DNA of 60,852 bases, filler included, from Nemertoderma westbladi (lineage: Eukaryota; Animalia; Xenacoelomorpha): the NCBI GenBank assembly GCA_032718475.1. It is 3 parts of 3 records of this genome, joined end to end, with 100 filler letters (N's around TTAATTAATTAA, not from the genome) between each part and the next. Parts side by side here need not be neighbours in the genome. Positions count along the whole stretch, not along the records: positions 1 to 18,977 come from JAUCBJ010008484.1; 2 more parts are not named here. One strand, 5' to 3'. The position numbers and the translations under genes are program-made. Of the stretch, positions 1 to 46,898 are shown in pieces. Position 1 is the stretch's first letter; each line of letters opens with the position of its first letter. The notes under the pieces were generated by a model that was not told where the DNA came from, searched no databases, and saw only the letters and a program-made list of their open reading frames with translations.

Positions 1-609
1 TTTAATTTAATTAGTTAGTTAATTTTAATAGCGCTCATAGTACTTTCTTTCACACCTCACATACTGTACTGATGTTACTCTTATTCCACTGTGCCACTGT
101 TTTAGTTGCATTCTTATACGTAGGCCTTATACGTAGGCCTTTCGTAGGTCAGTTTGACCTGAATTAATTAGTCTGTTGAATGTGTCAGTTTGTGTTTAAC
201 CCCTGTTTTTAGATCCCCCATCACCTCTGTCAGTAACGTCTTGGCTGTCAGGTTCCGATCTACTAGAGTAAAGTTCGGTGTGTCAGTGAGGAATGACAAA
301 GTATCCAAACTAAAGTCTCTAACATAGTGTTGTCAGTATTAAGTTCAGTAAAAGGCGTCATTAGGATGAGCCAATGGCAAACTGTAATTGTGGTATTGGT
401 ACCACCCCTGTCCCATGTCGTGCAATTTTGCCATTGGATCAGAGACTGTCACATGGTACAGTCGTCGCCCCCCACATGCAGTCCTATACGTCCTCTGTAT
501 AATACCGTGGTGTCCGTGGCAATGTCATTTGCTCCACAAATTCCAGACCTAGAAAGGCGTGGTTGGAAACGGATCGAGCAATATTGGATCTGATCTCTAG
601 AACAAGAGT

Positions 610-1145
610 CTCTGGGTGTTTAACAGCTGTGAAGAGTCCGTGGTGTAGTGTGGCTTATAACTTGCCTTGGCTAATGGCGGATAGATGTATACCACGCGAG
701 TCAAGGACGTTTCCACCCTCAACTTGCTGACTTAATGTGCCACCAATCCCAATAGCGGATCTATAGTATGATCTGTTTAACCACGCCATCATCCTCCCAT
801 TGACAGCCTTCCACCTGACATTGTATTCGATGTCGAAAGGTCTGCCCCATCTCTGTATCGCTCTGGGGAACATTTGAGCCAACAATACCAAGGAGGATCC
901 ATTGTCAGAATAAGCTTGCACCATAGTTTGTAATTTGGAGACAACAAAATCTGTATCGTTAGTACAGAGATCATTGGTTCCAAATAATATAACAGTGATG
1001 CAGGGTTCATTCTGCCATTGTTGGATAATCTCATGGGTATTGTGTTATGTGATATGTTATGGTGCAAAGTGGACTTCGTGTTCAGAATATACAATATACA
1101 AAAAAAAATTGTGGTCCGTCCGCAAATGTTACCCCAGCACACGGC
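610..1145 (-). pseudogene. Decayed SGNH/GDSL hydrolase ORF (copy 1), probably retroelement-derived
   Basis: Minus-strand translation gives CWGNICGRTT (block II-like), PCITVILFGTNDLC (block III GxND), LLAQMFPR and VLDSRGIHLS (block V-like His motif). In-frame TAA at 655-657; 5' part disrupted. Confidence 0.65.
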
Positions 1146-1556
1146 TGGAACATAAAAAGGCTAATTAAGAGCATGCGTTACAAGAGTGTGTTGATATATA
1201 TATAAAACACGTAAGGTAATATTGCCAAACACAAGAGGTATATTGATCATCTTCTATACTGCTGATCAGGTATAATTATATATCAAACTAGGTACGTATT
1301 ATGTATTAAAAACTACCTAGTAACAAAATCCTGCAGACCACGATTAAGAAACCTAAGATACCTCCCGTATCCCGGGGTCATTGATGGTCATGACGTACAG
1401 GTATCCTCCACCTCCCCTCTCTATATATGGGATCTGTCGATTTACGGAGATGGGTATATGTAAATAGCGGATATATTAAGTATAAGGCAATAAGTAGATT
1501 TAATTAAAGTTTCAACTACAACAATAACTGCATAGAGAGATTATTAGATTACATGT

Positions 1557-2668
1557 TCACTTGTGGTGATACTCACGAGCAAACGCCATGACACGTTCGG
1601 CGACCTCCTCCCCCTCGACATTAGCACCAGCCATTGCCGTGCCGGCATTCCTTATTTTGTCCTTAGCAGTTGTCAACCATGATCGAGCTCCAATAGAGAG
1701 TCGATCGTTCTTTCCCCCACGGTATCTCTCTTGAGACTCACTAGATCCTAAGGACCTGCATATGGTGAGTAGCTGGGGGTACATGGAAGATCGGACCAGG
1801 TTAGAGTGATCTGCCATATAGCCAATGTAGGGGCCATGCTGAATTAAGGCCCGGCAGGTCTTCTCTATGCCGGAAAACTCTGCGGGAAGGAGAGTCGCCA
1901 GCTGGGCCCAGTCTAGTATACCGAGCTCGCTCATTGCAGAGCAGATGATGCTGAAAGATGCCAGACCTTTATACTGCATCTGTTCGATCACGTTTTGTAT
2001 CGTGGGGCTCTCCGGTTCGGTCATAAGAGTTAACCTGTTCATAAGATCTCCCAGGTTGTCTGATATGTGAGCCCCAGAGATATGGGAGAACTCAGCTATA
2101 TCACTAGGGGATATGGTGATTCGAACCCCTGATGCATTGCACGCCTCTATGAATTTGGCACATCGAGCCTCTGTTATTGAGCCGCGAGATGCCACACAGA
2201 TACAGGCGGCTAGACCAACCCTTCTTGCGATCCTGTGAGCAACATCTGGCTCGGCTAGCCTGCCCGCCCTTAAAACCGCGGTACCTTGAACACCTGGATC
2301 AATGACCCCGAAGGGATCCGGAATTCCGGTAGCCTGAGCATCAACCTGAGCAGACTCGACTCAACCTGAGCATCCGTCAACTGAACAGCCGCCGTAGTGT
2401 TTATGGCACCATTTATCGGGAGAACTATGTTAACATATCCCGTCAGCGCCATTTGCACACCTCGGCTTCTAGTGAGGTTCGACAATGAAATCCTTGTGAA
2501 GATCCGAGGGATGGTGTTGTCGCGTTCTTGGATCTTCAGCTCGGTGATCCTATGTCCTTCCCCAGGGTTTCCAAGGAAGTCCCTAGGGTCGAAGTTATCT
2601 ATCGGCGCCCTTCTAGCGCGGTTATCGAATTCTACCCTTGCCTGAAGTTGTCCGAAATTAAATGCCAT
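1557..2668 (-). pseudogene. Endogenous viral element: negative-strand RNA virus nucleoprotein (chuvirus/Jingchuvirales-like), about 370 aa with one frameshift
   Basis: ORFs 2270-2668 and 1557-2195 join by one frameshift near 2355 (the second frame is open through ...SAQVDAQATGIPDPF...RVGLAACICVASRGSIT). The C-terminal lobe QMQYKGLASF..I..AM.....W..LATLLPAEF...GPYIGY.....RSSMYPQL.....ERYRG resembles the chuvirus/bornavirus N pattern. Intronless and GC-richer than its flanks. Confidence 0.7.
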
Positions 2669-3257
2669 TATTGATGCGGGTATCGGATGGGGTATAGAAA
2701 CAGTGATGTAAGGTCAAAAGAAAAACAGGTAGATAAATGCGATGAATATATAGTTCTTAAAATATTTATCTGTACCTTCAAAACATAACATTCGTGACTG
2801 ATGGCGACAGCCCGAAGTTGCATTCCGTTTGACTGTTTACAAAGCTCGATAGATGAACAGCATGGGAAGACCAAAATATATTAATCTCGTGTATGTAATG
2901 ACATAATCAATCATAAGTCGTAATAACAAATGCAAGATGGATTGACAAGGGGGAACGATAAGATAAGTGTGGGTCATTTTGAATATTATATATATTATTA
3001 GTAATAAGAACTGGAATTATATAGAATTATATAGTCGATTAAGTGTCGAAGTATATGATACCGCATTCCGTTTATATAGAAATGTTATACCATACTGTTG
3101 GTATAGCATCTGATAATTCACTGTATGTTGTTACATAATAAATGTGATAATTAGTTTTTGATATTGTTTGGTAATGTATTTCTTTGCTGGAAGGCTGTTA
3201 ATAGCACACCTCCCAATCTAATAATAATACCATATATGGTAATGATTCGGAGCTTAA

Positions 3258-4837
3258 CCCTATTAGTACCGGGCTATAAAATGTTGTACAAATACCGGGG
3301 GGGGGGGGGTCATATTGACCCCCCCCCCCCCCCCCCCCCCCCCTCTAAAATCTACAAATATTTACGAAAACGTCTGATTTTTTGTTTGTACGTAGGTATC
3401 ACTTGTCTGGATCCGACCGAAAAAAAAAATTTTCGAAAAAATGTACTGGGGTGGTTATATTGCAGCACCAAAATTACAAGTAGTGCCACAATTTTCCAAA
3501 ATTTGAAAGTTACATTTTCGGCTAATTATTTTTCAATACAGGTATTCTGGGGTGCAAAATATATTGGAAAATATTAAAAAATGATATGATTACTATAAAT
3601 GGCTGTTTAGTCCTCTCTGCGTAGGAAAAAAATGAAAAAAAAACAAGTAACCAGCACTTTTCAGTTAGAACACAAAATTTTTAATTCACTTATACGATGC
3701 TATAAATTCACATTTTCAGGTTTTCGAGGGCGCTGATTCTAATGGAATACATTTCTAATATGCCAGATCGTTGCTACTTGTATTTTTCGGCGTAATTTGG
3801 CAAATTTTGGTGCTAGCACCAAATTTCGTACCCATCACCAAAAAGTACAAGTTTGCGATGTCCAGTGCTGTTTTTATGATTCCATCGGATTCAGGACCCT
3901 CATATACCCGTATAACGCAAGAAACAAGGTGATACTATCTACTTATCAATTTGCATATTTTCCAAAATTTGGTGCTGGCACAAAAATTTTCACCCACCGG
4001 CGAAAAATACACGTTTGAGAACTCCTATGAAATTTTTACTGATTCCATTGAATTTAGAACCATCACAAACCCGTATAACGCAAGAAACAAGGTGACACAC
4101 AATCAATTGATATATTTGATGGTTTTCAAAATTTGGTGCTAGCACCACATTTTGCACCCACATCCGAAAAATACAAGTTTTAGATGTCTAGTTCGATAAT
4201 TATATTTTCCATTGAATTCAGAACAGCCATAAACCTCTAAAACGCAAGAAATAAATTGTCACAAGCAATTTTATCTATTGAATGGATTTTTAAAATTTCG
4301 TGCTAGCACCAAAATTTGCACACAGCACCGAAAAATACAAGTTTGATACGCTTGGTGAAACTCGTATATATTTCATCGAATCCAGAACCCCAAAAAACCC
4401 CAATTGCGTAAAAAACAAGTTTCAAACGATCAATTTACAAAATTTACTTATTTCAAAATTTGGTGCTGGCACCAAAATTTGGCACCCACCGAAAAAAACA
4501 AGTTTGAAATTTCTAAATCAATTTATATGAATTCCATCCAATTTCTAACACCAAAAAACCGGTGTAAATCAAAAATAGAGATGTTACAATTCATATTTAA
4601 TGAAATGTAATTTTCAAAAAACGTCTCAAAAAAAAAGTGCCAAAAGTAGGGTTAAAAAATGGTGCTATAACTCGAAAAGTACACAATATTTTTGAAAACG
4701 GTTTTCACTACTAAGAAGACAATAGATTTTTATGAAAAGTCATAAAATTTCAGATTCCCAACTGCGTTTGTTTCAGAATTATAATAAAAAAACCACGGGG
4801 GGGGGCATATTGACCCCCCCCCCCGGGTTTAATAGGG
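3258..4837. mobile_element. Non-autonomous piggyBac-type DNA transposon (MITE)
   Basis: TTAA target duplication at 3254-3257 and 4838-4841. Termini CCCTATTA...TAATAGGG. Gn-CATATTGA-Cn subterminal palindrome at both ends. Five internal 140-165-bp repeats (about 3820-4560). No transposase. Confidence 0.8.
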
Positions 4838-4964
4838 TTAACGAGGCCTAGTCATTGGTTTTTAGATTGCAATAATACAACTGTAGGTACTGGTACAACT
4901 GTATTCCCTAAATTTCTGGTGGGCTGTGTTTGGCTTACTATATCTAGCTTAGTGAGGTATATAT

Positions 4965-5220
4965 GAGTTACAGGTCTGTCATGAAAGGGTCACAGCTTGG
5001 TAACAAGTGAGTTACAGCTCGGTAACAAGTGAGTTACAGCTCGGTCACAAGTTTGATACTGCTGTGTCGCAAGTTAAGTACAGCTTGGTCACAAGTGAGT
5101 TACAGCTCAATCATGAATAGGTAACCGCTTGGTCACAACTGGGTTACAGCTCGGTCACGAGTGAGTTTCATCTTGGTCATGAGTGGGTTACAGCTTGGTG
5201 AGTTTCTACTCGACCATGAG
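4965..5220. repeat. Degenerate 22-bp tandem repeat (GTTACAGCTCGGTCACAAGTGA)
   Basis: About 10 imperfect units seen directly. Confidence 0.8.
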
Positions 5221-5575
5221 TGCGTTTTACTGTTTATAGATATAGATCCTCCTTCATCAGTAATCATGACGTAATTTACCTGTCTAAAATTCTCACCCAC
5301 AACCCCAGCCCCCACCCTCATGTCTCACCCCCACCCCCACCTCCCACCCCACACCCTCACGCTCTGCCCCCCACTTACCAACCCCACCCATCCACTCCGT
5401 TCTAATCTAACCATCAATTAACTCTGTCTACCCCCACATACACAGACCCACACTCCCACACACGGTTTTCTGCGGTAAGTTGTCTGCTATTTTCATTATT
5501 TGATTGTGGGGCCCTTATTTAAAAGAGCCACTCAGAAATAGGAATTACTGTGGGCACTAACCACAGCAAGTAGAT

Positions 5576-5599
5576 TGGCCCTTAAAAGGGCCGTTTGGG
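5576..5599 (-). terminator. Replication-dependent histone mRNA-type 3' stem-loop
   Basis: Minus strand reads CCCAAAC-GGCCCT-TTTA-AGGGCC-A (6-bp stem, 4-nt loop, CCAAA-like 5' flank), 20-30 nt after the SGNH ORF stop. A second degenerate copy lies at 5508-5530. Confidence 0.6.
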
Positions 5600-5610
5600 T
5601 TGTTAGGACT

Positions 5611-6199
5611 TAATGTGGGCGCTACACCACAGCAGGTAGAGCATGCTGGATAGTGCAATACAATTTACACTGTCCGACATCACTAAGGTGTATGCCATCA
5701 GAGTGAAGCAAGGCTCCTCCCTGCAGCCGATGGCATAGAGCACCTTTCATGGCTATGATGCGGCCATATTCGTATTACCTCAGCCACGCCGCCATCCTGC
5801 TGTTTGTAGCCACACGCCGCGAATCAAAATCGGGGTCCACAGGAATTCTCTTCAGGCGCATTGACCGCGGGACGATTTGTGCCCATAAATCGGAGGAGGC
5901 CTCATTGGGTGAATATTCTGTAATCATTGCCTTCAATTTGGTGACAACAAAATCTGTTTCTCACACATAGATCGTTGCCTTCAAACATTATAACAATGAT
6001 ACAGGGTTTATTCTCCCAATGTCTCATCACAGCTGAAAGTGAACTCGAGCAACTGCTGGATGCAGGCCAAAGTTACAATCAAAACTGCAATCATTATAGC
6101 CAAGAAACCCATATAGAAACCTATAGCTGGGTGAGATGAACCCATGATTCTGATTACGTGGATGTGCAGACGGCTGCAAACATGGACCGATTGAGACAT
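5611..6199 (-). pseudogene. Decayed SGNH/GDSL hydrolase ORF (copy 2)
   Basis: VIRIMGSSH (block I), NFGL..VHF, PCIIVIMFEGNDLC, ETDFVVTKL, AQIVPR, NSRMAAWL, LLHSDGIHLSDVGQCKL. Collinear with copy 1 at 610-1145; several stops and frameshifts. Confidence 0.7.
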
Positions 6200-6457
6200 T
6201 GCAATGTATAGATAGCAATAAATGATAGTATAGCAATATATTGGGGGTGATTGGGTAATTGTCGGTTAATATGATATGCCATTCCATTTATATAGAAAAT
6301 TTTAAACCATATTGATGGTGTAGACACATTCAGCCTGGGTGGATACTGGGTATATATATGTCATAATTAGTAATTGATTTTGGTTTGTAAATGTGCGGCA
6401 ATGCAGTTGTTCCCCGAAAATTATGCGAAAAGAACCATAGAGTGTTAGGTTGCCCTT

Positions 6458-8002
6458 CCCAGTTAAAAACAACTATGTGCATCATATGTGGCTGCATAAA
6501 TATTTTACACAAATGTGGCATACATCGAAATGAAACAGTCCAGACACATATGCAGTGCATATGTCTAAGCATATATGCTCCAAAAATTATAAACACAGTG
6601 GTTGCATATATGCATGTGCTGTGCATCCCAGCAAACAATGTACCCTGAGACAGTCTATCCAATCACAGGGCGTTCCTAGTGCATGCTGTGATTGAGAGAG
6701 GGGGGGTGGGGGTTAGCCTACCTTATCTTATGTCTATGTCTACACCCTACGGCCCTACACTTACTATACTCTATACATACTGTGATCTAATCGCTTGAGT
6801 ACATATGAAAATATATAATTCATTAAGACTGAGGAGTATCCTATATAACTTTCAGCGACGATCAAAAAATATTATTTCGAATATTAAAATCGATATAATT
6901 GATCTTCTTTTCAACTATATTAGATAATTCATAAGTATGAATTTACTAAAAATAGTACATTGTAGAACTGTTTAATATATAATTATAAACCATACATCTA
7001 TCCAATAATTTAAGTTTTTTGCAATTTAAGTCGGGGGTGGAGGGAGGGGTGGGGAGAAGGGGGGTGGTTGGTGTTTTGCTCTAGTTGAATTTTTGATCGT
7101 TTCATTTTTTATTTATGTTCACAGTATAAAATACTAAAAAACAGTATATAATGTTTTTTGCTAAAATGTATCCCTTGAGAGGGTTACATTATTTTTTCCT
7201 TTGATTGAGTTTAGAAAATATATCATAATCAAAAGAAAATATATCAATATGAAAAGTATTCTAATTGCGAAATGCTTTGTTGATAGGCTTATGTTGTAAA
7301 TAATTTGAATTATCAAACAATTGTAAAAACGACATTGGGATAGCTTTAATTATTGTAATCTCATTTTAGGTACTCTACTATCGGAATGGACGCAAAACGT
7401 AATGTGTCGGCAGGATGTACTATAGCTATATATTGACGTAGCTATTTCAATATCCACTTTTAGCTATTTCAATACAATATCGACCTTTAGCTATCTCAGT
7501 ATATTGACGTAGCCGTAGCTATCTCACTATATTGACTTAGCTATCTTAATATATTGACGTACTGTAGCTATCTAAGGCAACTAATGTGATGATTTTCATA
7601 CGCATAAAAGTGTTTGAGCCAAATAAACACACCGTTAGGTTAAAACAAGAGAAGGCGTGGGAAAATAGAGATATGTACAGAAGAACATAAGCTGTGACTG
7701 GCATATGTTTTGCACAAATTCCACACATATTCTCACCATAAATTTTCTCTCATGTTTACAGTAGCACATGTTAATCTTATGGGTATCTGATATGTCAATG
7801 CACAAATTATTGTGTGTCAAAGGCATATGTTTTAAATATATCAATCACAATTACATGAAACTGAGATTTAATGTGTGCCTTTACCACATTCTCTGCTTAT
7901 TTGCTGAAATTATGTTGCTGCATATATTTTTGTTGGGCATAAGTTTCCCACATGACACATGTAATTCACATATGATACATAATATTACCATTTTTAACTG
8001 GG
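6458..8002. mobile_element. Non-autonomous TIR element with CCCAG termini and 2-bp TSD (EnSpm/CMC-like)
   Basis: 12-bp TIR CCCAGTTAAAAA / TTTTTAACTGGG. TT duplicated at 6456-6457 and 8003-8004. Cleanly interrupts the RTE sequence. Confidence 0.7.
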
Positions 8003-8083: not shown

Positions 8084-8393
8084 CGCTATATAGCGAATGT
8101 GTGAACTGGGTGCGACGGCAACTGAGTTTCGCCTTGCTGAGGGCCTCGCTCATGTGCGTCCGCGGCTCTAGGTCTGCCCGTAAACGCCCAGCAGGCATAT
8201 ATCAGGACATCGCCCAAGCCTTCATCCGGTTGGCAAATGCCGATACAAGAATAAACTAATTTTGAAATACATTGTACAGTAGCGTGGTGGTGGGTGAGGT
8301 TTTTCTTATTTTTTATAACTTTTATGTGTCTTTTTATATATTTGTCAAGTTTGTCATTAAAAATAAAAAAAGCACTAAGCAGCCTAAAAAAAA
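8084..8393 (+). mobile_element. 5'-truncated 3' end of a CRE-like (RLE-type) non-LTR retrotransposon
   Basis: Encodes YSECVNWVRRQLSFALLRASLMCVRGSRS, then a 3' UTR with AATAAA and an oligo-A tail. 12-bp TSD ACTATGATGGGA at 8072-8083 and 8394-8405. Confidence 0.65.
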
Positions 8394-8714
8394 ACTATGA
8401 TGGGATAGATGAGCTTTAAACAATCAGGTATTTTAAAGGCCTCAGGGGGAACACCATCTACTCCACTGGCACGATTGGTCTTAATGCTCTTTGCAGCAGC
8501 CTTCACTTCTGCAATGGAGATATCGCCAATGGGAATATCTGGGAGTACAGACTCAGACACTTTTACTTCTATAAAGTTATTAGGCAATACCCTGTCATTG
8601 TTGAGGAGCTTTTCAAAGTGGGCCTTCCAACTGATCGGATGGTGATTCAGCCTTAACCTTGGTGGTTGGTTGGCTTTTCCAGTAAGCAAGTTGATCGATT
8701 TCCATGCCTGGGAT

Positions 8715-9344
8715 ACTACTACTACTACTAGGATCGGCATGCTGCATTGCAGCTGCATTTTTAAGAATGCTGTGCCGGCTTGTCAACAAAATTGCACTGC
8801 CACAACTCCCTATCACCCATGACATTTGCTAGATCATCCGCATCTTCAAGGCCAGTGTCCTTTAAGATGCGTCTCAAGAAAGTCATGGGCTGCCCACCAT
8901 GCTTATTCACTCCATGAGGCTGCCAAAGTACAAAATTATGCACTGGCTGGTCCTCACAGCGAAAGAAATGTCCTGCAAAGCGGAGGCGATTTTGTTCTAG
9001 TGTCAAGATTGGGGGAACCAATGAGAAGACACCTCCAATGTTATATAGTGTCTGGTTGGAGATGTGTGCATTGTACTTGACACAATGAACCCGGCGTGGC
9101 ATTCTTGTGTATGTGCCATCCAGAGATTTGGGGTCCTCAGCAGTTAGAGCCCAGCATGGACTCCCGTAGAGGAGTACTGGAACTACTGCTGCTCTAAATA
9201 ATCGGACCTTAAGTTTCCAATTAATTATCGGTGACTTCCAAATCCTGGAAAGTCTATTCAAGGCTGCCCATGCCTTTCCCTTACGTATTCGAAGGTCCTC
9301 ACCTGACTTCCGGATCCATGATCCCAGGTTACAGAAGTCGTCCA
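8715..9344 (-). mobile_element. 5'-truncated RTE LINE copy
   Basis: Near-identical to 49350-49977; (TAG)n tail; TSD CATGCCTGGGAT at 8703-8714 and 9345-9356. Confidence 0.9.
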
Positions 9345-10130
9345 CATGCCTGGGATGATTGCCTGCTGTCGTCAGCATCATTGATGGCATCAACCTGTTG
9401 GTTTATTAGCTCCTGTAGATTATCAGAGTACTGCCTGTTCAGGGACCTAGACGGTCAGGGCCCTAAACCGATTAGGTTCTCTGTTCGCAGAACACCGAAC
9501 ACTATTCCGGCCACGGAACTAGTCCAGCAGAATGCCTTTATAGAATCCTGGGATTTGTGGGACGAGAGGATCTCAGCAACTAAGCGAAAACGAACAATAG
9601 AATGTTCCTAGACCCCCCCCCAAAATTTATCCAGAAGACTTTTCGCCATACATAATGTGTTAAAAAAGTCTACGGTTCTCCAGCTAGGGCCAATTTGAGT
9701 CAAAAAGTCCGCTTCCCTAGCAACCACGTTGCTATGGAGATAAGTCCAGAACCGCTAATGCTACGGACTTGGGACCGGCGCCAATCGATAGGCAGCATAT
9801 GGGTTTACCTTCAAGAGATTTTTTTGGAGCGATCAGATCATGATCTTGACCATGATCAGCAAAGATCAGTTTTGATCAGCAATCGGACACTCAAGGCTTG
9901 CTCCAATCGAAAAACTTAACATTACAAAAAGATTCAGCGACCCCACATTAGTCATGATTCCCGTTAAAAGATTTAAAAAAAAGTGAATTCTTCCCGGTTA
10001 AAACGCAAGATCATGATCGCGCAAAGATCGGACTTCGTAAAATCGTAACTAAGCATTTTGGATATAAACAATTACTGCTACGTATTGTAGACTCAATAAC
10101 TTGCACATTTTCGCAGTCTGCCCCCAATTT

Positions 10131-10964
10131 ATGACTCAATGCCATCATTGTCAGTTTAAAGGACATGCAAGTTTTGATTGCCCTTTCAACCGAGATCTGG
10201 AAAGCGTAGATGAAATGATTACCTTACGCTACATTCGAGCCTGGGAAGCGAAAGCGGATCTACATTGTGAGTCACGTCATCAATACTACCCTGGACGTGC
10301 TTATGAAGGAGTTTATGCGTTTCACCCGTATCTATTCGCGTCCGTTGAACAAAAATCTCGCACACCGAGTTACGAACTAATGAAGCGTGTTGGCGAGAAT
10401 ATTTCGACCAAATTTGTTCGTAAATATCTCAGGAACATTAATCCCAATGATCTTAATTCCTATAACTTGATCAACTTCATCCATCAAGATCCGGAATATG
10501 GTGATTTGTTCATCAACTCGCATCCAGAACTACAGGAAGTTCATAGACGACCCTATGAATATAGAGCCCGAGAACGCGAGTTAGAAAGAACCATCAAACC
10601 GAGGAAATTTCTCACTACTCACGGTTCACCTACCGCTCTCGTGCAGACGACTCGTCAGGGACCAGTAAGAGCTGCTGTCTTGAAACACGCTCTGAAGGTT
10701 GTTCGACCTCGCTCCACTGAGGTTGATATCGATCAACCGGGTACCTCGACCGGCGGATGCACCGACGTAATCCTAAACCTTCCGATGCAATTGTATTGCA
10801 CCCTTCACCCAGGAGTTATAGCCCTCCTAGTAAAGTGGCTTGCCCCAAAGAGAAAAGGACTCTTGCTAGCCTCAAAAAACTGCGTAAACGCCATTCGCGT
10901 AAGAAGGACTAACTGTTTAGAGTATTTTTATATTTTAGAAACTGTGATTTTTTATATTTTATAG
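10131..10964 (+). CDS. Unknown ORF with N-terminal CCHC zinc knuckle, just upstream of an LTR
   Basis: MTQCHHCQFKGHASFDCP (C-X2-C-X4-H-X4-C); 277 aa open from ATG 10131; ends 26 nt before the LTR start. Confidence 0.55.
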   Translation: MTQCHHCQFKGHASFDCPFNRDLESVDEMITLRYIRAWEAKADLHCESRHQYYPGRAYEGVYAFHPYLFASVEQKSRTPSYELMKRVGENISTKFVRKYLRNINPNDLNSYNLINFIHQDPEYGDLFINSHPELQEVHRRPYEYRARERELERTIKPRKFLTTHGSPTALVQTTRQGPVRAAVLKHALKVVRPRSTEVDIDQPGTSTGGCTDVILNLPMQLYCTLHPGVIALLVKWLAPKRKGLLLASKNCVNAIRVRRTNCLEYFYILETVIFYIL

Positions 10965-14349: not shown

Positions 14350-16866
14350 TCAGTAGGTCCCTTTCTTCTGTGCTTGAATTCCAGTCAGCAGGTACTGTGA
14401 ATTTTGATACGGATATCAATATATCAAAACTCAATATACATTATATTTGACTGTTTGGGTGAAATGTCTACGGAATCGAGTAAGGATGATGATGAATGGG
14501 ATACTGTTTCTTGTAGCTCTTTGGAATCCGATTCAGACTTTGTTGTAGAGAATAATGCTGATGAATATTGGCTATCATCTGATGACACTGATGCTGCTAT
14601 AGATTCGGACACTAGTTTTGGAACAGTAGCAGCTGTAGATAATACGGATACAGTTACTTCTAGTCCAATTGAGTCCAGAAATGGTAAAGTCATATGGAAT
14701 ACTATTCCTCCTACACAATTAGGTCATCGCGCATCGGCAAATATAATAAGTGAAATCCCAGGAGTAACAAGGTATGCAGTTGCTAGAATTGAAAACATTC
14801 AGATGTCATTTCAATTGTTCAATACAAGTGAGATAATATAAACTATCGTGCAAATGACGAATATAGAGTTTAATAAAGCATGTGGCAACGATGTAGTTGA
14901 TTAGGATTCAATTAGAGCATTCTTAGGGCTAAAATTATTAGCTGGTTTATACCGTTCCAGAAACGAGTCATTGAAAACATTGTGGGATGATACATATGGA
15001 AGGCCTATATTCCGGAGTACAAGGTCATTGAAGAAGTTTTTTGATATATCAAGATATTTACGCTTTGATGACAAGGACACCCGTTCAGCGCAACGGCGAA
15101 CTGACAAACTGGCGCCAATTAGAGATGTATGGGACTAGCAAATTACCAATGATGTATAACATTGGAGAATGTGTAACAATCGATGAACAGTTAGTCCCAT
15201 TCCGTGGGCGATGCCCCTTCCGTCAGTATATCCCCAGTAAGCCAGATAAGTATGGGATAAAGATCTGGTTTCTGTGTGATGTGAAATCAAGCTATGGTTG
15301 GAAAGCAGATGTGTATCTTGGGTAGCCTGAAGGTGGTCCTAGGCAGACAGATTTGGGAAAGCAAGTTGTGTTGAATCTTTCGGAGGGACTAAAGGGCCGT
15401 AATATAACATGTGACAACTTTTTTTATATCTTTGGCCCTTTCAATCGAACTGACAAAGCGCCTCCAGACTATGGTTGGAACTATTAGGAAGAATAGAAAG
15501 GAGCTGCCAAAGAGCTTTTGTGAATCGAAGAGACGGGAACAGTATTCGACCTTGGAGGGGTATTCCACAGGAAATACATTAGTATCATACTGTCCAAGGA
15601 GAGGAAAAGTGGTTGTCCTTATGAGTTCAATGCACTCAAAGGTGACATACAGTACTGCAGTTGAGAAGAAGCCAGACATTATACTATATTATAATCAAAC
15701 CAAGGGAGGGGTAGACACCCTTGATAAGTGAATATCCACTTATAGGAGCAAGCGGCAAACGAAGAGATGGCCTGTAGCTCTCTTTGACAACATGGTGGAT
15801 GTGACGGCTTATAATGCTTATGTACTATGGCTGGAAGTGAATCCCGACTGGAACAAGGGTTAGAAATACAAACGGCGCTTGTTTATTGAGGAGCTTGGGC
15901 TGGAACTTATTAGCCCAACCATAGCGACACGAAAACGGCTACCGTATAGTTCAAATGCTCAGAGGTTGGTGAAGCGTTTACGTCAGGACATACCATCGGA
16001 TGCTCCATCAGCATCGATATCACAACCTACTCCGCATTCAAGAGGATATTGCCATCTCTGTACAGGAGCAAAGCAGAGAAACAAGGTATCAAAGGTGTGT
16101 GCAAAGTGTGATAGACACACTTGTAATGCACATGGCGAAGCCACATTTATGTGTCAGGAATGTGACAAATAGGCCTAGTAAAACTGTAGTAAACTAATTA
16201 TACAGTAGAATATTCAAACTGTCAAATGAAATAGGGACGATGGTTTAATTTACTAGTTATCACATCACACCTTACAAAGTTGAAATTGAATTTGAATTAT
16301 ATTACTTGTATATTGTTTTGTTTTTTGTATTTCTCCGAATTTTCAATTATCTGTAGATATGATTAATAAGTAGAATACTGGAATAATATAATACCCTCAT
16401 TATTTATCGAGGCCAGGATTTATTATTTTCACTGAGTGCATTGTTGAGTTGTGGGAGGTTTAGTTGCCTACTAATTGCACTAACAGACGCAGACATGAGT
16501 CAGACAGACAAACAGACAGACAACTTGATATAATACTATCTGCCTTACCTACAGTATAATAAAACTTACTAAAACATATATCATTATACTGCTGTATGTA
16601 TTGATATGGTAATCTTGATATTTAATCGCAATGACTTACTGGTATCATACCATTACATTACTAATTCTGATAACAGACAATGGACAGACAGACAAAAAAC
16701 AGACAACTAAGATAATACTACAGTCTAATATCTGAATATAAGTAGGCAACTTTCATTCCTAAAAGGTAACCACTGGATATTGAATCACAGTGCCTTCTCA
16801 TTTACATGAGGTCAAAATTGACCTCAAAGGAATCAAATGTTTGAGAAATGAAGGGGAACACAAGGG
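14350..16866 (+). mobile_element. piggyBac element; right end intact, left end not found
   Basis: Right terminus ...GAACACAAGGG|TTAA (TTAA at 16867-16870) with subterminal palindrome GAGGTCAAAATTGACCTC. Confidence 0.7.
14464..16172 (+). pseudogene. piggyBac (PGBD4-like) transposase pseudogene
   Basis: Acidic N-terminus; VTIDEQLVPFRGRCPFRQYIPSKPDKYGIKIW, NITCDNFF and YNQTKGGVDTLD (DDD triad); C-terminal Cys-rich domain CHLC..CAKCDRHTCNAH..CQEC. Multiple stops and frameshifts. Confidence 0.92.
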
Positions 16867-23600: not shown

Positions 23601-26600
23601 TCTAATCTTATTGTAAAGCAGGCCAGTTTGACTAAGGTAAAAAACATATTTAATAAAAATACCTAATTGTATATGTAACTTGGGGTGAGCCACGTAGTGA
23701 GCCAATGCGTACGTATGGTAATAGTTATTAGTTGATGTCTAAGTTTTGGTCCTTTCCGTTTGACTTTGTCCTTCTGCCAGAACGTCTTTTTGCTTAAAAA
23801 TAATCGCGATTAATTCAATAAGCCGCCAGTTGGGGCATTAAAATTCACCCAAATCTCAATATCAAATTCTCCAAATATGTTGGTTGATGTGTGTGTTCCA
23901 ATGACGCCTTGTGATTATATTTTTAATGACGCGGAGACATTCTGGATATATGATAAATAATGTCGCACTGTGATATAAAATTGGAGAATAATATGTACTC
24001 AATACAAGGGCTGTACTAAACATCCTGGGTAAGATTACCTTACCTATCTGGAAACGGAATGTAGACAATTCGTGTCGTGATATATATATTATTAATATTT
24101 GCTTCTACATCAAGTATATGCCTTTCTGTTCTGAACATCGTTTATTGATTTAAATAATTATTTTCCAGGTTGAATACCACTTCTCTCTCCTCAAAGAACA
24201 CTTCAACGCTAGTGTCACGAGAAGAGATTCGTTGAAGCAGCAGAAAACAACAATTCATGAGAGATTGAAGCGGGCAGCCCAGTTAATTAGCGCTCTCGAA
24301 GGTGAAAAGGTTAGCTATTCGTAGCCGCCGATAGTTCTATTGTATTTATTATTTTTACTTCTAGTAAACACCCAGTTTGTTGTTATTGTTGATTTCCACT
24401 TTGCTTTTGCTCACTTGGTAGAACGTTGGATTTGGAATTCGAATTACCGGGTTCAATACCACACTTAGATGTAATGTTTTTTCGAAGAAAATATTTGAGT
24501 TTTGTAAAATTGGTTTAATTGAAACTCGAGAACATGATTCAGTTTGGTGGAAATTAATCCAAAGAGGAGACAGTTCATGCGTTATTTGACGCGGAACTTT
24601 GAGCTATTTTGCGCTTGTTTATGCTCCACTAATTAACAATGTTACATATATTTACTGACTTTGTCAAGTTGAAATTAAAGAAAATTCACAAACGTTGGGC
24701 AAATTTATTAGAAAATATATCTGAATATATTTTATGTTTATTTTTAGGTGCGATGGGCAAAATCCGTAGCAGATCTGGAAACCCAATTGCGGACTTTAGT
24801 TGGAGATTGTCTGGTGACCGCGGCTAATATCGTGTATTTCGGCCCCTTTACCGCCCAATACCGGACGGCAATGGGTAAACAGCTGGTTGACATCTGCGAC
24901 TCCAACGATGTTGAAATATCACCTGGATTCAAAGTTGTCGATTATTTGTGCCACTCAAATGAGGTCTGTAATACCGATAATTTAATGATAATCATCATTT
25001 ATGCCCATTACGCTAGGGAATGTCTGTTCACCACAATTGGTGATTTCCTACTGTTAACCCTTCCCCTATGTTTCCTAAAGGAATGCCTGTTCACCACCAT
25101 TGGTGATCTTCCACAGTAAACCCTTCCACTCTGTTTCCTAAAAGAATGCCTGTTCATCACCATGGGTGATCTTCCACAGTAAACCCTTCCAATCTGGTTC
25201 CTAAAGGAATGCCCGTTCACCACCATGGGTGATCTTCTACAATAAACCCTTCCACAGTGTTTACTAAAGGAATGCCTGTTCACCACCATGGGTGATCTTC
25301 CACAGTAAACCCTTACACTCTGTTTCCTAAAGGAATGCCTGTTCACCACCATGTGTGATCTTTCACAGTAAACCCTTTCCCACTCTGTTTCCTAAAGGAA
25401 TGCCTGTTCACCACCATTGGTGATCTTCCACAGTAAACCCTTCCACAATGTTTCCTAAAGGAATGCCTGTTCACCACATGTGTGATCTTTCACAGTAAAT
25501 CTTTCACAGTAAACCCTTTCCCACTCTGTTTCCTAAAGGAATGCCTGTTCACCACCATTGGTGATCTTCCACAGTAAACCCTTCCACAATGTTTCCTAAA
25601 GGAATGCCTGTTCACCACCATGAGTGATCTTCCACAGTAAACCCTTACACTCTGTTTCCTAAAGGAATGCCTGTTCACCACCATGGGTGATCTTCCACAG
25701 TAAACCCTTCCACAATGTTTCCTAGAGGAATGCCTGTTCACCACCATGGTTGATCTTCCACAGTAAACCCTTCCACAATGTTTCCTAAAGGAATGCCTGT
25801 TCACCACAATGGGTGATCTTCCACAGTAAACCCTTCCACAATGTTTCCTAAAGGAATGCCTGTTCACCACCATGGGTGATCTTCCACAGTAAACCCTTCC
25901 ACAATGTTTCCTAGAGGAATGCCTGTTCACCAACATGGTTGATCTTCCACAGTAAACCCTTACACTCTGTTTCCTAAAGGAATGCCTGTTCACCACCATG
26001 GTTGATCTTCCACAGTAAACCCTTCCACAATGTTTCCTAAAGGAATGCCTGTTCACCACCATGGGTGATCTTCCACAGTAAACCCTTCCACAATGTTTCC
26101 TAAAGGAATGCCTGTTCACCACCATGGGTGATCTTCCACAGTAAACCCTTCCACAATGTTTCCTAGAGGAATGCCTGTTCACCACCATGGTTGATCTTCC
26201 ACAGTAAACCCTTACACTCTGTTTCCTAAAGGAATGCCTGTTCACCACCATGGGTGATCTTCCACAGTAAACCCTTCCACAATGTTTCCTAGAGGAATGC
26301 CTGTTCACCGCCATGGTTGATCTTCCACAGTAAACCCTTCCACAATGTTTCCTAAAGGAATGCCTGTTCACCACCATGGGTGATCTTCCACAGTAAACCC
26401 TTCCACAATGTTTCCTAAAGGAATGCCTGTTCACCACCATGGGTGATCTTCCACAGTAAACCCTTCCACAATGTTTCCTAGAGGAATGCCTGTTTACCAC
26501 CATGGGTGATCTTCCACAGTAAACCCTTCCACAATGTTTCCTAAAGGAATGCCTTTCACCACCATGGGTGATCTTCCACAGTAAACCCTTCCACAATGTT

Positions 26601-29600
26601 TCCTAGAGGAATGCCTGTTCACCACCATGGTTGATCTTCCACAGTAAACCCTTCCACAATGTTTCCTAGAGGAATGCCTGTTCACCGCCATGGTTGATCT
26701 TCCACAGTAAACCCATCCACAATGTTTCCTAAAGGAATGCCTGTTCACCACCATGGGTGATCTTCCACAGTAAACCCTTCCACAATGTTTCCTAAAGGAA
26801 TGCCTGTTCACCACCATGGGTGATCTTCCACAGTAAACCCTTCCACAATGTTTCCTAGAGGAATGCCTGTTCACCACCATGGGTGATCTTCCACAGTAAA
26901 CCCTTCCACAATGTTTCCTAAAGGAATGCCTTTCACCACCATGGGTGATCTTCCACAGTAAACCCTTCCACAATGTTTCCTAGAGGAATGCCTGTTCACC
27001 ACCATGGTTGATCTTCCACAGTAAACCCTTCCACTCTGTTTCCTAAAGGAATGCCTGTTCACCACCATGGGTGATCTTCCACAATAAACCCTTCCACAAT
27101 GTTTCCTAAAGGAATGCATGTTCACCAGCAAGGGTGATCTTCCACAGTAAACCCTTCCACAATGTTTCCTAAAGGAATGCCTGTTCACCACCATGGTTGA
27201 TCTTCCACAGTAAACCCTTCCACAATCTTTCCTAAAGGAATGCATGTTCATCAGCATGGGTGATCTTCCACAGTAAACCCTTCCACTCCCAAATTTAATA
27301 ATATTTTATTTAAATTTTATTGGTGGTAGAATATCAAATCTACCAAATGTTCCGTAAACGGTGTAAAAATATAATATGTAACTAAAACTAAAACTGAAAC
27401 TATTCACCATAAACAATTTAATTAAACTACGGTAGAATTGTGAACTGTGTGGTAAAGGGTAATGATAATCTCGTTGCATCTGACTTACGTGGAATCATGA
27501 TAGGAATGTCAGAAACCAATCGCTACGGGATGACCGTATTGGAGATGATGATGACTGAGATGGGATGTTTCCGGAAGCCGACTACTACTACTAGGATCGG
27601 CATGCTGCATTGCAGCTGCATTTTTAAGAATGCTGTGCCGGCTTTCGCCGACAATATCTCGCTAATGACTTAGTGTCGGCTTGGGAGTGGTATCATGTTA
27701 GGGAGTGGTATAATTTAATTAATAATTTTCTTCCGTTTATATTTCAACTATAATTCGATTTCTAGGTATTAACTTGGTACAGTCAAGGTCTCCCACGCGA
27801 TTCTCATTCTGTAGAGAACGCCCTATACGTGACTAAAGGCAGACGATGGCCCCTGCTAATAGACCCACAAAGACAGGCGCGTCGGTGGATAGATCATAGC
27901 GAAGGGAATTCACTGCGAACTATAGACGCGAATAACCCCGGGTTAATTAACGCAGTTATAAACGCTCTAAGAGTTGGACAACCCGTTCTGGTTTACGTTA
28001 GTTATTTAATGCACATATTAGTCACATTATCATTATTATTAGTTTTATTTTGCACAGAGATATATAATTGATTAATGATAACAAACTACACTGCACTGTA
28101 TTCGCTCTAATACATTAATAGCTCTACAAAGGAAGCAACTATGTAGCACAAAGAAATATTATAAATATTGGCTAAGAAAGTTTTTCAGGTTCGAACAAAA
28201 AATAAAAAATATTTAATGGAAGTTATATTATGGGTTCTAGACACCTAGTAAATTATTCTAAAGTAATCACAGCGACTTACCAGTAAATTGAGTCATTCTC
28301 ATACAGGTGCCCATTCTAACCTAACAGCAGCCCTAGTGCCAACTCGGCTTATATTTTTTTAAACAGATTATCATATCAATTTGATAACAATTTTACACAA
28401 ATACGAGATATATTTTACATTTTTAAATTATCCAAATTTAAATAGGACGTATACCGAATCGGGTAGCCTATATGGATTGTTTGCAGTCAAATTTTGCACC
28501 CTTCATTTTTTTAAAGTTTGTGAAAGCGGGAGATATTATACTAATAAGTAAGTTATTGAGTATAGTTAAATATTGTTCGATTATACAATTTCTAATCTCT
28601 ACGAAGTTTTACGACCGTCTCTCAACACAATTATTTGTCGTTCTCCCCAGGGTGTCAGCGAGATTCTAGAACCAGCATTGAACCCGGTACTACTAAGGGA
28701 GACCATTATGGTTGCCGGGAAACCGATGATGACAATCGGGGATACTGAGGTTGAAGTTGATAGCAACTTCAGATTGTATCTGTGTTCCGACGCAAATAAC
28801 CCTGAGTTTCATGCTTCAGTCTCTATCAAAGTCACTCTCATTAACTTTACCGTCACTTTCGACGGCCTGGAAGAACAATTGTTAACGACGGTTGTAGGAA
28901 AGGTAATTACAACTCTGTTTCCTAATGATGTACAATTACGTTGTACAATATGTTTCTTTATCGTTTTACGTTTTACGTACATTTGTGCTTGTGGATATCT
29001 ACAGTGTATGAAAGTTAGATAACACTCGGTGTGAATTTCGCATGTTTGATGTTTATTGGAAATTGTATCCGCTGACAATGATAGTCTATTTTGTTTCCCA
29101 TTATTACTTGTTCAGACTTCCGAATGATCTACCAGACTTCCCGCTGACCCACCGATTGGCCGTGGCTGCGACTTATTGTGAGAGGCGCATTAAGTGTCAG
29201 GACTCTTTGATGCTTCTTATTCACAATTTTTCATGTCATCAATCAAATTGTTTACTGCTGATCGATGCGCACCAAACAGTCTATTTTCGCCTTTTCGTAT
29301 AAGTGTATCTCTGTAATAGAGTCAGCTGTCCGTCTGTCCAGGTGAGTCCGTTTCATTGATTGGTCTCACGTATTTTGTAGGAGGAAGCTGGTTTGGAAAC
29401 GGAAAGAACTGATATTCTGAAGGGATTGGCTTCTGATTTCAAAATGTTGCGCAATTTGGAAGACAGATCGCTTACAAGGCTACAAAATCTACAGGTGCGT
29501 TGTTTACTTTGTGTGATAGATTGACCAATGAAATAAAAAGTTTCATTATTAACATTAATTACCTCGAATAAATTATCGACGGTTACCATGGCACCCAAGG

Positions 29601-32695: not shown

Positions 32696-35600
32696 AAAAA
32701 CACTTCACCCCTTTTCAATCGCTTGTAGCTAAAGAATAAAAATTATGGCTCACCCAGTCAGTGGTCGCTCACCCACGGAGCTCACCCACGGAGCTCACCC
32801 ACGGAACTCACCCACGGAGATCACCCACGGAGCTCACCCACGGAGCTCACCCACTAAGGAGGAGGGAGGTGAAATTATCTGTTTCAAATGGCATTCAATC
32901 CCGTTAACTCGTTAGCTGCGGATGAAGTGACGCTGCACAACTTTACTGCGGCAGGTTTTACTCCCTGTTAACTTCTAACTGCTGATTGTGCACCGGTGAA
33001 CATGAAATTTTGGCTTGGGTAGCCCTTACTACAGAGTCTATAAGTGGACGTGCTCAACGAATTTTTACTCGCGATATTTTTACTCGCGATATTTTCACTC
33101 GCGATATTTTCCTCGCGATATTTTCCTCGCGATATTTTCACTCGCGATATTTTCCTCGCGATATTTTCACTCGCGATATTTTCACTCGCGATATTTTCAC
33201 TCGCGATATTTTCCTCGCGATATTTTTACTCGCGATATTTTCACTCGCGATATTTTCACTCGCGATATTTAGATTTTTTCATCTCGCGATATTTTTACTC
33301 TCGATATTTTTTAAGCGCGATCTTCAATGCGAAATTCGCCAAGAACTGTTACTCCTCTCTAGTTTATTTTATAAAAAGGGATGGACTGCGAGGTGCTAGT
33401 GGCATAGTATTGATACCTTTGGCACACTCTAGAGGTCTGTGGCTGTATGCTTTGCATCGGTACCGGTATGTCCCCAGTTATTTATAACCATATGGTGGCG
33501 CGACCATTATTGTCACTGGACACCTTTGAAAGACTCCGCCAGGCAACTTTAGTGTTCCGAATAGTTAGAAGTACAGTACCCTGGAGCCCTTTTTGGCACT
33601 TAGTGGGTCATTATGATTTCATAGACTGGAGGTGTTTTATGCGGTTCTTAGAATATTATGTAAATTTCTTAGAATTTGTTTCCTCTGGAGACATACACTA
33701 CTATTACTAGTAGACATACATATTACCACCCATCCATTCGGATGGAATTATTGAATACGAATTAAATTCAGCGAATAGATTTTAATATTATTATGTCTTG
33801 AATGTTTTATATTCGAAGATTACACTTGTTGTACATGTGTTTACACGGGATGGGATTGAATCAGACGAAAAATATTATTGATATTTTAATTTAATTAATC
33901 AAGCAAGATATGTAAAAAAAAATGTTACCGGTAAATGTGCAGCAGATACAGTACAAAGCAACCGTGACCTAGATATTGCATGCAGTAATACCTATTCAGC
34001 TCATCGGTAGGTTTCAACCCACTCAGGTGGCTTTCTCAGGCAGCCAACTGCTATTGGGGCAGCCAAGAATAAAATACTATTTTCTACAATAAATATACTT
34101 TATGCGATGGAAAAACGCGAGGTCACTGCTGTCCATGCCGCATGGAATCGTACAAGTAGTATTCATTCATTCATTAAAAATGTATTTAATCAATTTAAAT
34201 TGACATAATTTAAAAAGTGCAAAACACATATAAAAACATACGAATATAGACAGTAAATGACATTAGCCAGTAATCAGCTATGATCGCATATCAACAAAAA
34301 GGCCCAAATAACATAGGCTACAACTCTAAGATATATTTATCTATTTAGATTCTAAATTGTTATATTGGTTTAAGATTGCGATTTCAGAGCAACTTTATTT
34401 TGAAATTGTCAACTATTATTCACTAAGTTAAATTATAATATTATTATAAAGTAATAAAGTAATAAAATGTAATCAATAGACTTCAGCCTAAATCTACCCA
34501 ACCCACTGACCTCCCTGTACACAGTGTATCTGATTTGTTCGGAATACTAATATTAATTAATTTAGAAAACGTCAAATCCGCTTGATAAAGACGATGTTAT
34601 ACAGTATTATTATTCATCTTCAGGTATTTCTTTCTCCTTATAAAGTCAGTTCCCATTGGACGTAAAAAAGGAAATTCTTTCTCCAAAATCAATGTTATTG
34701 GTTGGCTTAATAATTTGACTCAAAATTAATTTGCATCACAATGAAGTAACACCAAATGCCTTACAATTTGTACTCCAATTCGGAAAAAAATTGCATTCAA
34801 GGACATATTTTTTTATTTTCTTTATTATTTTAATTCAAAACTATTTCTTTTAGAAACGTTGCGATTCTATTGCAAACTGGAAGGAGGTTTCCAAAGAATC
34901 TACTCAATTCGCTAAACATTGCGTATCTGTGGAGGAATGGCGTCTATTCCTACATTGTGACGTCATGTCTAGTTTGAAATCGAGAATAAGCCGACATGGT
35001 AAGATGGTATGTAGGATAGTCAAATTTGAACAGAAGATGATAGAACAAATTACATAAAAGCACCCTCCACCTCCACCTCCACCTCCACCTCCACCTCCAC
35101 CTCCACCTCCACCTCCACCTCCACCTCCACCTCCACCTCCACCTCCACCTCCACCTCCACCTCCACCTCCACCTCCACCTCCACCTCCACCTCCACCTCC
35201 ACCTCCACCTCCACCTCCACCTCCACCTCCACCTCCACCTCCACCTCCACCTCCACCTCCACCTCCACCTCCACCTCCACCTCCACCTCCACCTCCACCT
35301 CCACCTCCACCTCCACCCCACCTCCACCTCCACCTCCACCTCCACCCCACCTCCACCTCCACCTCCACCCCACCTCCACCTCCACCTCCACCTCCACCTC
35401 CACCTCCACCTCCACCTCCACCTCCACCTCCACCTCCACCTCCACCTCCACCTCCACCTCCACCTCCACCTCCACCTCCACCCCACCTCCACCTCCACCT
35501 CCACCTCCACCTCCACCCCACCTCCACCTCCACCTCCACCTCCACCCCACCCCACCTCCACCCCACCTCCACCTCCACCTCCACCTCCACCTCCACCCCA

Positions 35601-46324: not shown

Positions 46325-46898
46325 GTAGGTGGGTTAGGTTAGGAGGTATCTTGAGGGTTAACAACATAAGTGCAAATGAGTCATTTTACATTACTACCAG
46401 GTCATATGATATTGTGTTGGCCCGGTGTTGACTTAATTAATTGATGTATACCAACCCTTACCGCACTTGAACCGTGTGACCATGTATATCCTATTGCGCC
46501 TGACATGATGTTTTTGTAACTAACTCTAACGTAAAGATATATTTGATATTACTAAGGATAGTTAATTAGATTAAGGGCCCCATAGTGATATGTAATAGGC
46601 CTAATTAATATACAAAGCATTGAATTAGTTTTTTGGCTTGTACAGGAGGTCACTAACCCTTATATGTACAGTATTACACTAGTATTACAGGTAGCCGATA
46701 ACCCTACAGTATATTAAATTGTATATAATTTAGTCTATATAACTTCAGTACATATTATTTATAACATTTCACAAACCTGTTTGTATATGAAAGTAACAGC
46801 AAGCGCGATAATCTTTAACTTCATACGAATTATTAATAATAATAGCATATAATTTCAGGTTGTGTACAAAACACAGACCCAAGACCCCAGACCCCCAG

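What the first reader, a model, noticed from the sequence alone, without database searches (positions are those of the whole stretch)
1557..2668. Near full-length endogenised nucleoprotein of a divergent negative-strand RNA virus (chuvirus-like)
Seen: two minus-strand ORFs fuse into one intronless protein of about 370 aa through a single frameshift in a GCTCAGGTTGA micro-repeat near 2355. Known: ASRGSIT, QYKGL, W..L..LLP.EF, PYIGY, S.MYP.L and RYRG follow the motif order of Jingchuvirales (and more distantly bornavirus) N proteins. These viruses have no DNA stage and depend on retroelement RT to integrate. Inference: this is a fossil of a possibly unsampled virus lineage. The single lesion suggests a recent or retained insertion, for example as a piRNA source or restriction factor.
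Basis: partly seen in the sequence, partly recalled or inferred. Interest (0 to 1): 0.8.

Follow-up and report, generated by a model that had tools for sequence, protein, structure and literature searches.

The report
Young chuvirus-like nucleoprotein gene fossil
An animal genome carries a broken, near whole-gene copy of the nucleoprotein of an unknown chuvirus-like RNA virus, sitting inside a host repeat between two 7-base duplicated ends, with several related versions in other samples; it is likely a young viral fossil of a familiar kind, from a virus lineage with no close relative in the databases searched.

Summary
Observation confirmed. The 267-aa frame 1557-2360(-) is a Jingchuvirales-type nucleoprotein. 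It has 13 phmmer hits at 23-28% identity, one a named Nigecruvirus N. Its model matches chuvirus N best and solved Mononegavirales N next. No family can be assigned, and the tree gives it a long unplaced branch.

New here: the gene lies in a 1,626-bp insert flanked by an exact 7-bp direct repeat. The insert interrupts a multi-copy SGNH-hydrolase repeat, and empty-site joints appear in 3 of 4 runs. Those runs hold sister versions about 90%, 95% and 98% alike. The frameshift looks private to this copy. Differences from the 95% version are 16 synonymous to 7 non-synonymous (pN/pS 0.14).

Best reading (0.62): a young, decaying retro-copy of viral mRNA, one of several insertions from related strains, the selection signal being inherited from the virus. 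A host-maintained source gene (0.18) is not excluded. Expression and piRNA could not be tested. Chuvirus N fossils are published, and this scan noted similar N fossils on other DNA. New member of a known kind.

The parts
1557..2360 (-). C-terminal two thirds of the viral nucleoprotein gene (267-aa open frame ending at the stop at 1557); residues about 40-220 match relatives
2361..2668 (-). N-terminal third of the gene, from the ATG at 2668; in its own frame it runs on to a stop at 2270
   Evidence: no match to the relatives' profile; 6 of 7 listed differences synonymous in this frame; bridged by contigs (table 8)
2333..2372 (.). Break region: short repeated unit in which the frame shifts; sister versions differ from the window in length here
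   Evidence: table 4 (3 of 4 runs)
2669..2781 (-). AT-rich 5' untranslated tract (113 bp, GC 0.33), likely the viral mRNA leader; a sister version leaves the window at 2779
   Evidence: table 7
1156..1556 (-). AT-rich 3' tract (401 bp, GC 0.35), no poly(A); origin viral or host unresolved; 1407-1453 is shared with a higher-depth sequence family
   Evidence: tables 2, 3, 7
1149..1155 (.). Left copy of the exact 7-bp direct repeat AACATAA (likely target-site duplication)
   Evidence: table 5 (joint 1148 to 2782, 7 letters fit both sides)
2782..2788 (.). Right copy of the 7-bp direct repeat
   Evidence: table 5
623..1148 (-). Downstream part of the interrupted host repeat, coding a decayed SGNH/GDSL hydrolase-like frame (655-1044)
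   Evidence: Pfam PF00657 E 6.8e-4, below the curated cut-off; aligns to 5629-6022; multi-contig cover
2789..3177 (-). Upstream part of the same host repeat, holding the start of the hydrolase-like frame
   Evidence: joints across the insert (table 5); 8 of 13 residues identical to the second copy; 2990-3177 aligns to 6204-6394
5629..6394 (-). Second, diverged (about 70%) member of the same SGNH repeat family, without the viral insert

Best explanation
This is a frameshifted DNA copy of a chuvirus-like nucleoprotein gene inside a host repeat, likely made by reverse transcription of a viral mRNA by a host retroelement, and likely now decaying as one of several insertions from related virus strains. 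Shown: N homology and fold, the 7-bp flanking repeat, the empty form of the host repeat, sister versions with different ends, and a synonymous bias between versions. Inferred: that the template was an mRNA (the insert starts 113 bp before the ATG, and a sister version starts within 2 bp of the same point); that the 7-bp repeat is a target-site duplication made by a LINE-type enzyme or by repair of a staggered break; that the purifying signal arose while the sequence was still in a circulating virus; and that this copy makes no full-length protein.
For: N identity: 13 phmmer hits with E <= 1e-3 among 1.84 billion representatives, 23-28% identical. Of 10 looked up, one is named nucleocapsid protein of Periplaneta americana mononega-like virus, Chuviridae, one 'hypothetical protein', eight unnamed. 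hhalign 99.4%. Foldseek on viral models: 24 matches with E <= 1e-3, of which 19 carry jingchuviral names (6 checked in taxonomy; the rest recalled), 3 are unnamed, 1 is a qinvirus and 1 an unclassified mononegavirus. The top 14 of 48,161 solved chains are all Mononegavirales N, Z 7.0-9.4, next unrelated chain 5.4. Integration: exact 7-bp repeat at the junctions set by empty-site joints in 3 of 4 runs (chance about 8e-5 for a given pair); held by DNA runs of two studies. Several insertions: three versions overlap at 1924-1984 in one sample, and versions leave the window at different 5' points (2779, 2746, 2607; tables 7, 8). The 90% version has no gap over 734 bp. Window versus the 95% version: 16 synonymous, 7 non-synonymous of 23 listed, pN/pS 0.14, p 6e-6; worst case 16 of 29, pN/pS 0.26. 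LINE reverse transcriptase copies lie in the same window (RTE-type label recalled).
Against: No poly(A) at either end of the insert, unlike the LINE-1-made bornavirus copies described in PMC3205384. The purifying signal fits host-phase selection equally well. Only 31 coding differences could be classed, because the tool showed 40 of 172 rows and gave no contig sequences or flanks. Contig depth is not copy number, and samples may be pooled, so the number of loci is unknown. Part of the 3' tract (1407-1453) is shared with a higher-depth family, which a purely viral insert does not explain. No L or G gene was found nearby, so the order is inferred from N alone. VIA Z of 7-9 is within the range that helical proteins can reach by chance (tool note).
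Confidence: 0.62

Rival explanations
1. The host keeps a functional, domesticated N gene elsewhere (for example a dominant-negative restriction factor, as proposed for bornavirus N copies), and the window's copy is a pseudogene or retrocopy of it.
For: pN/pS 0.14 between the window and the 95% version. The break looks private to the window (table 4). The 90% version has no gap over 734 bp (table 8). The 3' tract shares a stretch with a higher-depth family, as a host-derived tail would. Precedent: inhibition by a squirrel bornavirus-like N and long chuvirus N/L frames in vertebrates (PMC11521997, passages).
Against: No version is shown whole: the 95% version leaves the window at 2607, inside the first codons (contigs of 2 runs), and the 98% version lacks two internal parts (tables 5, 8). 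Differences between virus strains give the same synonymous bias. In PMC11521997 the purifying selection listed for chuvirus orthogroups was on L, not N.
Confidence: 0.18
2. The 1.6-kb cassette is itself mobile cargo: N was picked up by a transposon (for example by template switching of the SGNH-carrying element) and spread as a unit, with internally deleted derivatives.
For: The insert has the same orientation as the SGNH frame. An SGNH frame is a part of amphibian Ngaro-like retrotransposons (bioRxiv 2021.08.05.455354, passages). A sister version ends within 2 bp of the same boundary but continues into other sequence, and has two internal deletions with filler letters (tables 5, 5c, 7). Chuvirus glycoprotein capture by BEL-Pao elements is published (PMC7642597, passages).
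Against: The insert destroys the SGNH frame and does not extend it. An exact 7-bp repeat at both ends is simpler as a target-site duplication. No terminal inverted repeat joins the insert's ends among those shown. No reverse transcriptase or recombinase family was detected next to the SGNH copies. Cover over N is several-fold lower than over the host repeat.
Confidence: 0.12
3. The source virus belongs not to Jingchuvirales but to a neighbouring group with the same type of N (Qinviridae, or an unclassified mononegavirus).
For: A qinvirus N and Umea virus (unclassified Mononegavirales) are among the 24 significant fold matches, at ranks 22 and 23. The tree does not place the window's protein. 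The order's tree is built on L (PMC10770922, whole text).
Against: All named matches in ranks 1-21 carry jingchuviral names, and the only informatively named sequence hit is Chuviridae.
Confidence: 0.06
4. Assembly artefact or contamination by an exogenous virus sequence.
For: The window has an N gap near 19 kb and long low-complexity tracts. No listed contig spans the whole insert.
Against: DNA runs of two studies hold it. It has clean junctions with a host repeat, and an RNA virus without a DNA stage would not appear in DNA runs otherwise (established knowledge).
Confidence: 0.02

Closest known systems
Chuvirus nucleoprotein-derived endogenous viral elements of vertebrates (92 N-like elements in PMC11521997; also PMC11089739)
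   Same: Single-gene DNA copy of a Jingchuvirales-type N in an animal chromosome; several related insertions per genome; thought to be retro-copied mRNA.
   Different: Host here appears to be an invertebrate-type animal (phylum not determined); only 22-29% identical to any protein found; sister versions 90-98% alike show a synonymous bias.
Endogenous bornavirus-like nucleoprotein (EBLN) elements (PMC3205384, passages)
   Same: N gene copy with flanking target-site duplication; proposed restriction-factor role.
   Different: EBLNs typically have a 3' poly(A), which this insert lacks; bornavirus N ranks far below chuvirus N in the viral fold search (not among the top 50 rows; rank 29 and lower).
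Nucleoprotein of Periplaneta americana mononega-like virus (Nigecruvirus periplanetae, Chuviridae; P0006)
   Same: Same motif series and C-terminal core; phmmer E 6.4e-5.
   Different: 23% identity over 176 residues; 566 aa against about 370 here; no supported clade with it.
Chuvirus glycoprotein capture by BEL-Pao retrotransposons in mosquitoes (PMC7642597, passages)
   Same: Chuvirus gene found inside a host mobile element.
   Different: There 409 of 428 elements are glycoprotein, one is N, and the gene is added to a working element; here N interrupts the host element's coding frame.

Membership tests
Monjiviricetes-type nucleoprotein (Jingchuvirales/Mononegavirales N fold) | Helical N core matching solved N structures | tested here: met
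   Model pLDDT 72, pTM 0.67; top 14 of 48,161 chains are N proteins, Z 7.0-9.4, 167-230 residues aligned, rmsd 3.8-12; Foldseek PDB best E 3.8e-3, Sendai N
Jingchuvirales N | Closest sequence and fold relatives are jingchuviral N | tested here: met
   19 of 24 significant fold matches carry jingchuviral names, 6 checked in taxonomy
Jingchuvirales (order) or any of its families | Placement by the L protein tree and a genome with L, GP and NP (PMC10770922) | not testable with these tools
   No L or G found in frames of window 1-21,800; no whole genome is held
Chuviridae (family level) | Supported clade with named Chuviridae N | tested here: inconclusive
   17-row tree has one named member; the window row has end branch 3.1 and no starred set; fold matches span Chuviridae, Myriaviridae and Crepuscuviridae
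Non-retroviral endogenous viral element | Embedded in host DNA, present in DNA runs, empty form of the target known | tested here: met
   dynein exons and a CYP46A1-like gene in the same window
LINE-1-type processed copy (EBLN-like) | Target-site duplication | tested here: met
   Exact 7-bp direct repeat at both junctions
LINE-1-type processed copy (EBLN-like) | 3' poly(A) tail | tested here: not met
   No A run of 5 or more on the mRNA strand of the insert, and none at the insert's other end
Domesticated viral gene | Intact frame, expression, purifying selection between orthologues | tested here: inconclusive
   This copy is frameshifted; pN/pS 0.14 between versions of unknown locus; expression not testable
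Ngaro-like (DIRS order) element, for the host repeat | gag, RT/RH, tyrosine recombinase, SGNH frame and split direct repeats | tested here: inconclusive
   Only a weak SGNH/GDSL match; no RT or recombinase family next to it; the copies are decayed

The most novel reading that the evidence does not exclude
An invertebrate has taken up and still maintains a nucleoprotein gene from an unsampled Jingchuvirales-like lineage as a small gene family under purifying selection, or carries it as cargo of a mobile unit, and the window's copy is a dead offshoot; it would be a chuvirus-type counterpart of the bornavirus N restriction factors.
Probability: 0.2. Interest if true: 0.72.

Novelty: new member of a known kind. 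Interest (0 to 1): 0.42.

Why it matters
Jingchuvirales are known almost only from sequence, with listed hosts being arthropods, fish and reptiles (PMC10770922). A chromosomal copy proves that a deeply divergent member infected this animal's germ line recently. The sister versions record the diversity of the virus population at that time, and they give a bait for finding the living virus in RNA data. N copies of chuviruses are rare in mosquitoes (1 of 428, PMC7642597) but common in vertebrates (92, PMC11521997), so the kind is not new. It would matter more if the synonymous bias proved to be selection in the host.

Tried and rejected
Searches that gave nothing: Pfam for both frames; PDB by sequence and by profile, which hit only designed helical repeats; word-based homolog search with the C-terminal frame, 0 of 1,180 candidates; ESM Atlas, no usable hit for the C-terminal frame and only weak unnamed hits at low recognition for the N-terminal frame. 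A single-sequence fold was unusable (pLDDT 43). Related loci: none in viral or metagenome contigs, and no exact match for a host-repeat primer in metagenomes. No homolog was found for the SGNH frame. No Rfam match in 1-8000. No second N copy in the window. No whole genome is held. No RNA holder was listed, which says nothing about expression. The DNA alignment of the right flank to the second SGNH copy did not beat shuffles (57 against a maximum of 61.5); only the short protein match, the 2990-3177 match and the contig joints support that link. The empty-site pattern is not in the window. Differences over 1560-1903 (3 synonymous, 5 non-synonymous) are not different from neutral (p 0.30). A cellular or gag origin was rejected. 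Paper searches listed no report of this element, but the library lacks most subscription journals and supplements were not read.

Full report
What is there. The minus strand has a frame from an ATG at 2668 that stops at 2270, and a second frame open from 2360 to a stop at 1557 (267 aa). A 12-base unit is repeated at 2341-2352 and 2361-2372, where the frames change. The coding span has GC 0.52, against 0.33-0.35 for the tracts on either side. The window is animal DNA: dynein heavy-chain exons from 20501, an intronless CYP46A1-like gene (E 7.7e-88), LINE and piggyBac remnants. The host phylum was not determined.

Identity of the protein. Pfam, PDB sequence search, the word-based search and the ESM Atlas gave nothing. 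The exhaustive phmmer search gave 13 proteins with E <= 1e-3, 23-28% identical. I looked up 10 of the 13: one is the nucleocapsid protein of Periplaneta americana mononega-like virus (Nigecruvirus, Chuviridae), one is called hypothetical, eight have no name. A profile of 10 relatives without the window gives hhalign probability 99.4% over 176 columns and 101 bits against at most 3.7 for 500 shuffles. A model built on the 14-row alignment (pLDDT 72) has 24 matches with E <= 1e-3 among viral models. Of these, 19 carry jingchuviral names (six checked; the others recalled), three are unnamed, one is a qinvirus and one an unclassified mononegavirus. The top 14 of 48,161 solved chains are Mononegavirales N at Z 7.0-9.4, the next unrelated chain at 5.4. 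The model leans on the relatives' alignment, so the fold matches are not fully independent of the sequence hits. In a 17-row tree (window frame plus 16 of the 22 proteins held; P0014-P0019, near-duplicates, left out) the window row has the second-longest end branch (3.1) and no supported partner. So it works like a jingchuviral N, but family membership is untested, since the order's tree rests on L (PMC10770922, whole text). The N-terminal 102 aa match nothing.

The insertion. The gene lies between two halves of a decayed SGNH/GDSL hydrolase-like frame (PF00657 E 6.8e-4, below cut-off). A diverged relative at 5629-6394 lacks the insert. Three DNA runs from two studies hold part of the stretch. 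Contigs in 3 of 4 runs laid join the left flank directly to 2781-2813, skipping the insert (table 5). These empty forms may come from other copies of the repeat and not from this locus. The junctions carry an exact 7-bp direct repeat, 1149-1155 and 2782-2788, around 1,626 bp (chance about 8e-5 for a given pair). The insert has 113 bp before the ATG and 401 bp after the stop, and no poly(A). Bornavirus N copies made by LINE-1 have both duplication and poly(A) (PMC3205384, passages), so only half of that signature is met. The enzyme is inferred, not shown.

Sister versions. One sample holds three versions that overlap at 1924-1984: about 98% alike with two internal deletions, about 95% alike, and about 90% alike with no gap over 734 bp (tables 5, 8). 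They leave the window's sequence at different points on the 5' side (2779, 2607, 2746), so at least two loci are likely if the sample is one animal. In 3 of 4 runs a contig bridges the break and differs from the window there in length, so the lesion looks private to this copy (table 4). None of the versions is shown whole, and no contig sequence was available. Of 40 difference rows shown (132 more were cut), 32 lie in the coding span; I classed 31 and left out one at the break. Nineteen are synonymous, against 27% expected (p 6e-5). Against the 95% version the count is 16 synonymous to 7 non-synonymous, pN/pS 0.14; if all six unlisted ones were non-synonymous, 0.26. Six of seven in the N-terminal frame are synonymous, which supports that frame as coding. 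Over 1560-1903 the count is 3 to 5, not different from neutral, and 3 of the 5 changes private to the window are non-synonymous.

How it most likely came about. A jingchuvirus-like virus infected the germ line; its N mRNA was reverse transcribed more than once and inserted, here into a repeat, with a short duplication; the copies differ mostly at silent sites because they came from different strains; and each has since begun to decay (0.62). Shown steps are the homology, the junctions, the versions and the bias. The template, the enzyme and the phase in which selection acted are inferred. A crustacean study met the same ambiguity between recent origin and exaptation (PMC4231630, passages). The main rival is a host-maintained source gene (0.18). 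A mobile cassette is possible (0.12): SGNH frames occur in Ngaro-like elements (bioRxiv 2021.08.05.455354, passages), and 1407-1453 is shared with a higher-depth family that I cannot explain. A piRNA role has precedent for a rhabdovirus-like N fossil in a whelk (PMC6085071, passages) but could not be tested.

Comparison and novelty. Chuvirus N fossils are published: 92 in vertebrates (PMC11521997, passages; PMC11089739, passages), one of 428 in mosquitoes (PMC7642597, passages), and chuvirus fossils mostly of G in horseshoe crabs (PMC12282059, passages). Chu-like viruses are reported from a sea anemone sample and a tunicate (bioRxiv 2024.12.15.628590, passages), so a non-arthropod host would not be a first. 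Supplements were not read and may list further elements. This scan has unchecked notes on similar N fossils in other genomes, one with a 14-bp duplication inside an old transposon, and nothing on this sequence. Verdict: a real, well-marked, young fossil of a divergent lineage; new member of a known kind; interest 0.42, rising to about 0.7 if the selection proves to be in the host.

Noticed in passing
window 3254-4841: Non-coding element with TTAA at both ends, terminal inverted repeats and an internal 164-bp tandem array; piggyBac-like non-autonomous element (label from recalled TTAA/CCC ends) with very high contig depth in all four runs.
   Followed up: partly
window 14401-16172 (+): Broken piggyBac-type transposase (PF13843 in three frames).
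   Followed up: no
window 20501 onward (+): Dynein heavy-chain exons; the first found matches AAA_8 from profile position 96, and no earlier exon was found among 143 plus-strand frames, so the viral insert may lie in a large intron or the gene is cut by the N gap near 19 kb.
   Followed up: partly
window 39538-41064 (-): Intact, intronless 508-aa CYP46A1-like cytochrome P450 (E 7.7e-88 to cholesterol 24-hydroxylase).
   Followed up: partly
window 8384-9402, 42357-42857, 48431-49933 (-): Three near-identical copies of one LINE family, the last with a 500-aa reverse transcriptase frame; a candidate source of the enzyme.
   Followed up: no
window 1045-1117: 73-bp stretch with an A run that other copies of the SGNH repeat lack; likely a small later insertion (table 5).
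   Followed up: no
window 1380-1453: Part of the insert's 3' tract, with a TATA-like run, shared with a higher-depth sequence family in three runs; origin unexplained.
   Followed up: partly
window 34900-37960: About 3 kb of CCA/CCT-type microsatellite with GC skew near -1.
   Followed up: no
window 25490-26979 and 46769-47548: Two minisatellites that give long repetitive open frames.
   Followed up: no
window 10068-10964 (+): 298-aa frame with a CCHC zinc knuckle (PF13917 E 0.053, weak), possibly a gag remnant.
   Followed up: no
window 50160-52137 (+): Two frames that read like parts of a class A GPCR (by eye).
   Followed up: no
window 59139-60851: A 249-aa plus-strand frame without Pfam match and a 321-aa frame open at the window end with an AEAERK-type repeat.
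   Followed up: no
proteins P0008, P0020, P0021, P0022: A well-supported clade of four unnamed N proteins from public assemblies, and further unnamed N relatives, pointing to more unsampled jingchuvirus-like lineages.
   Followed up: no
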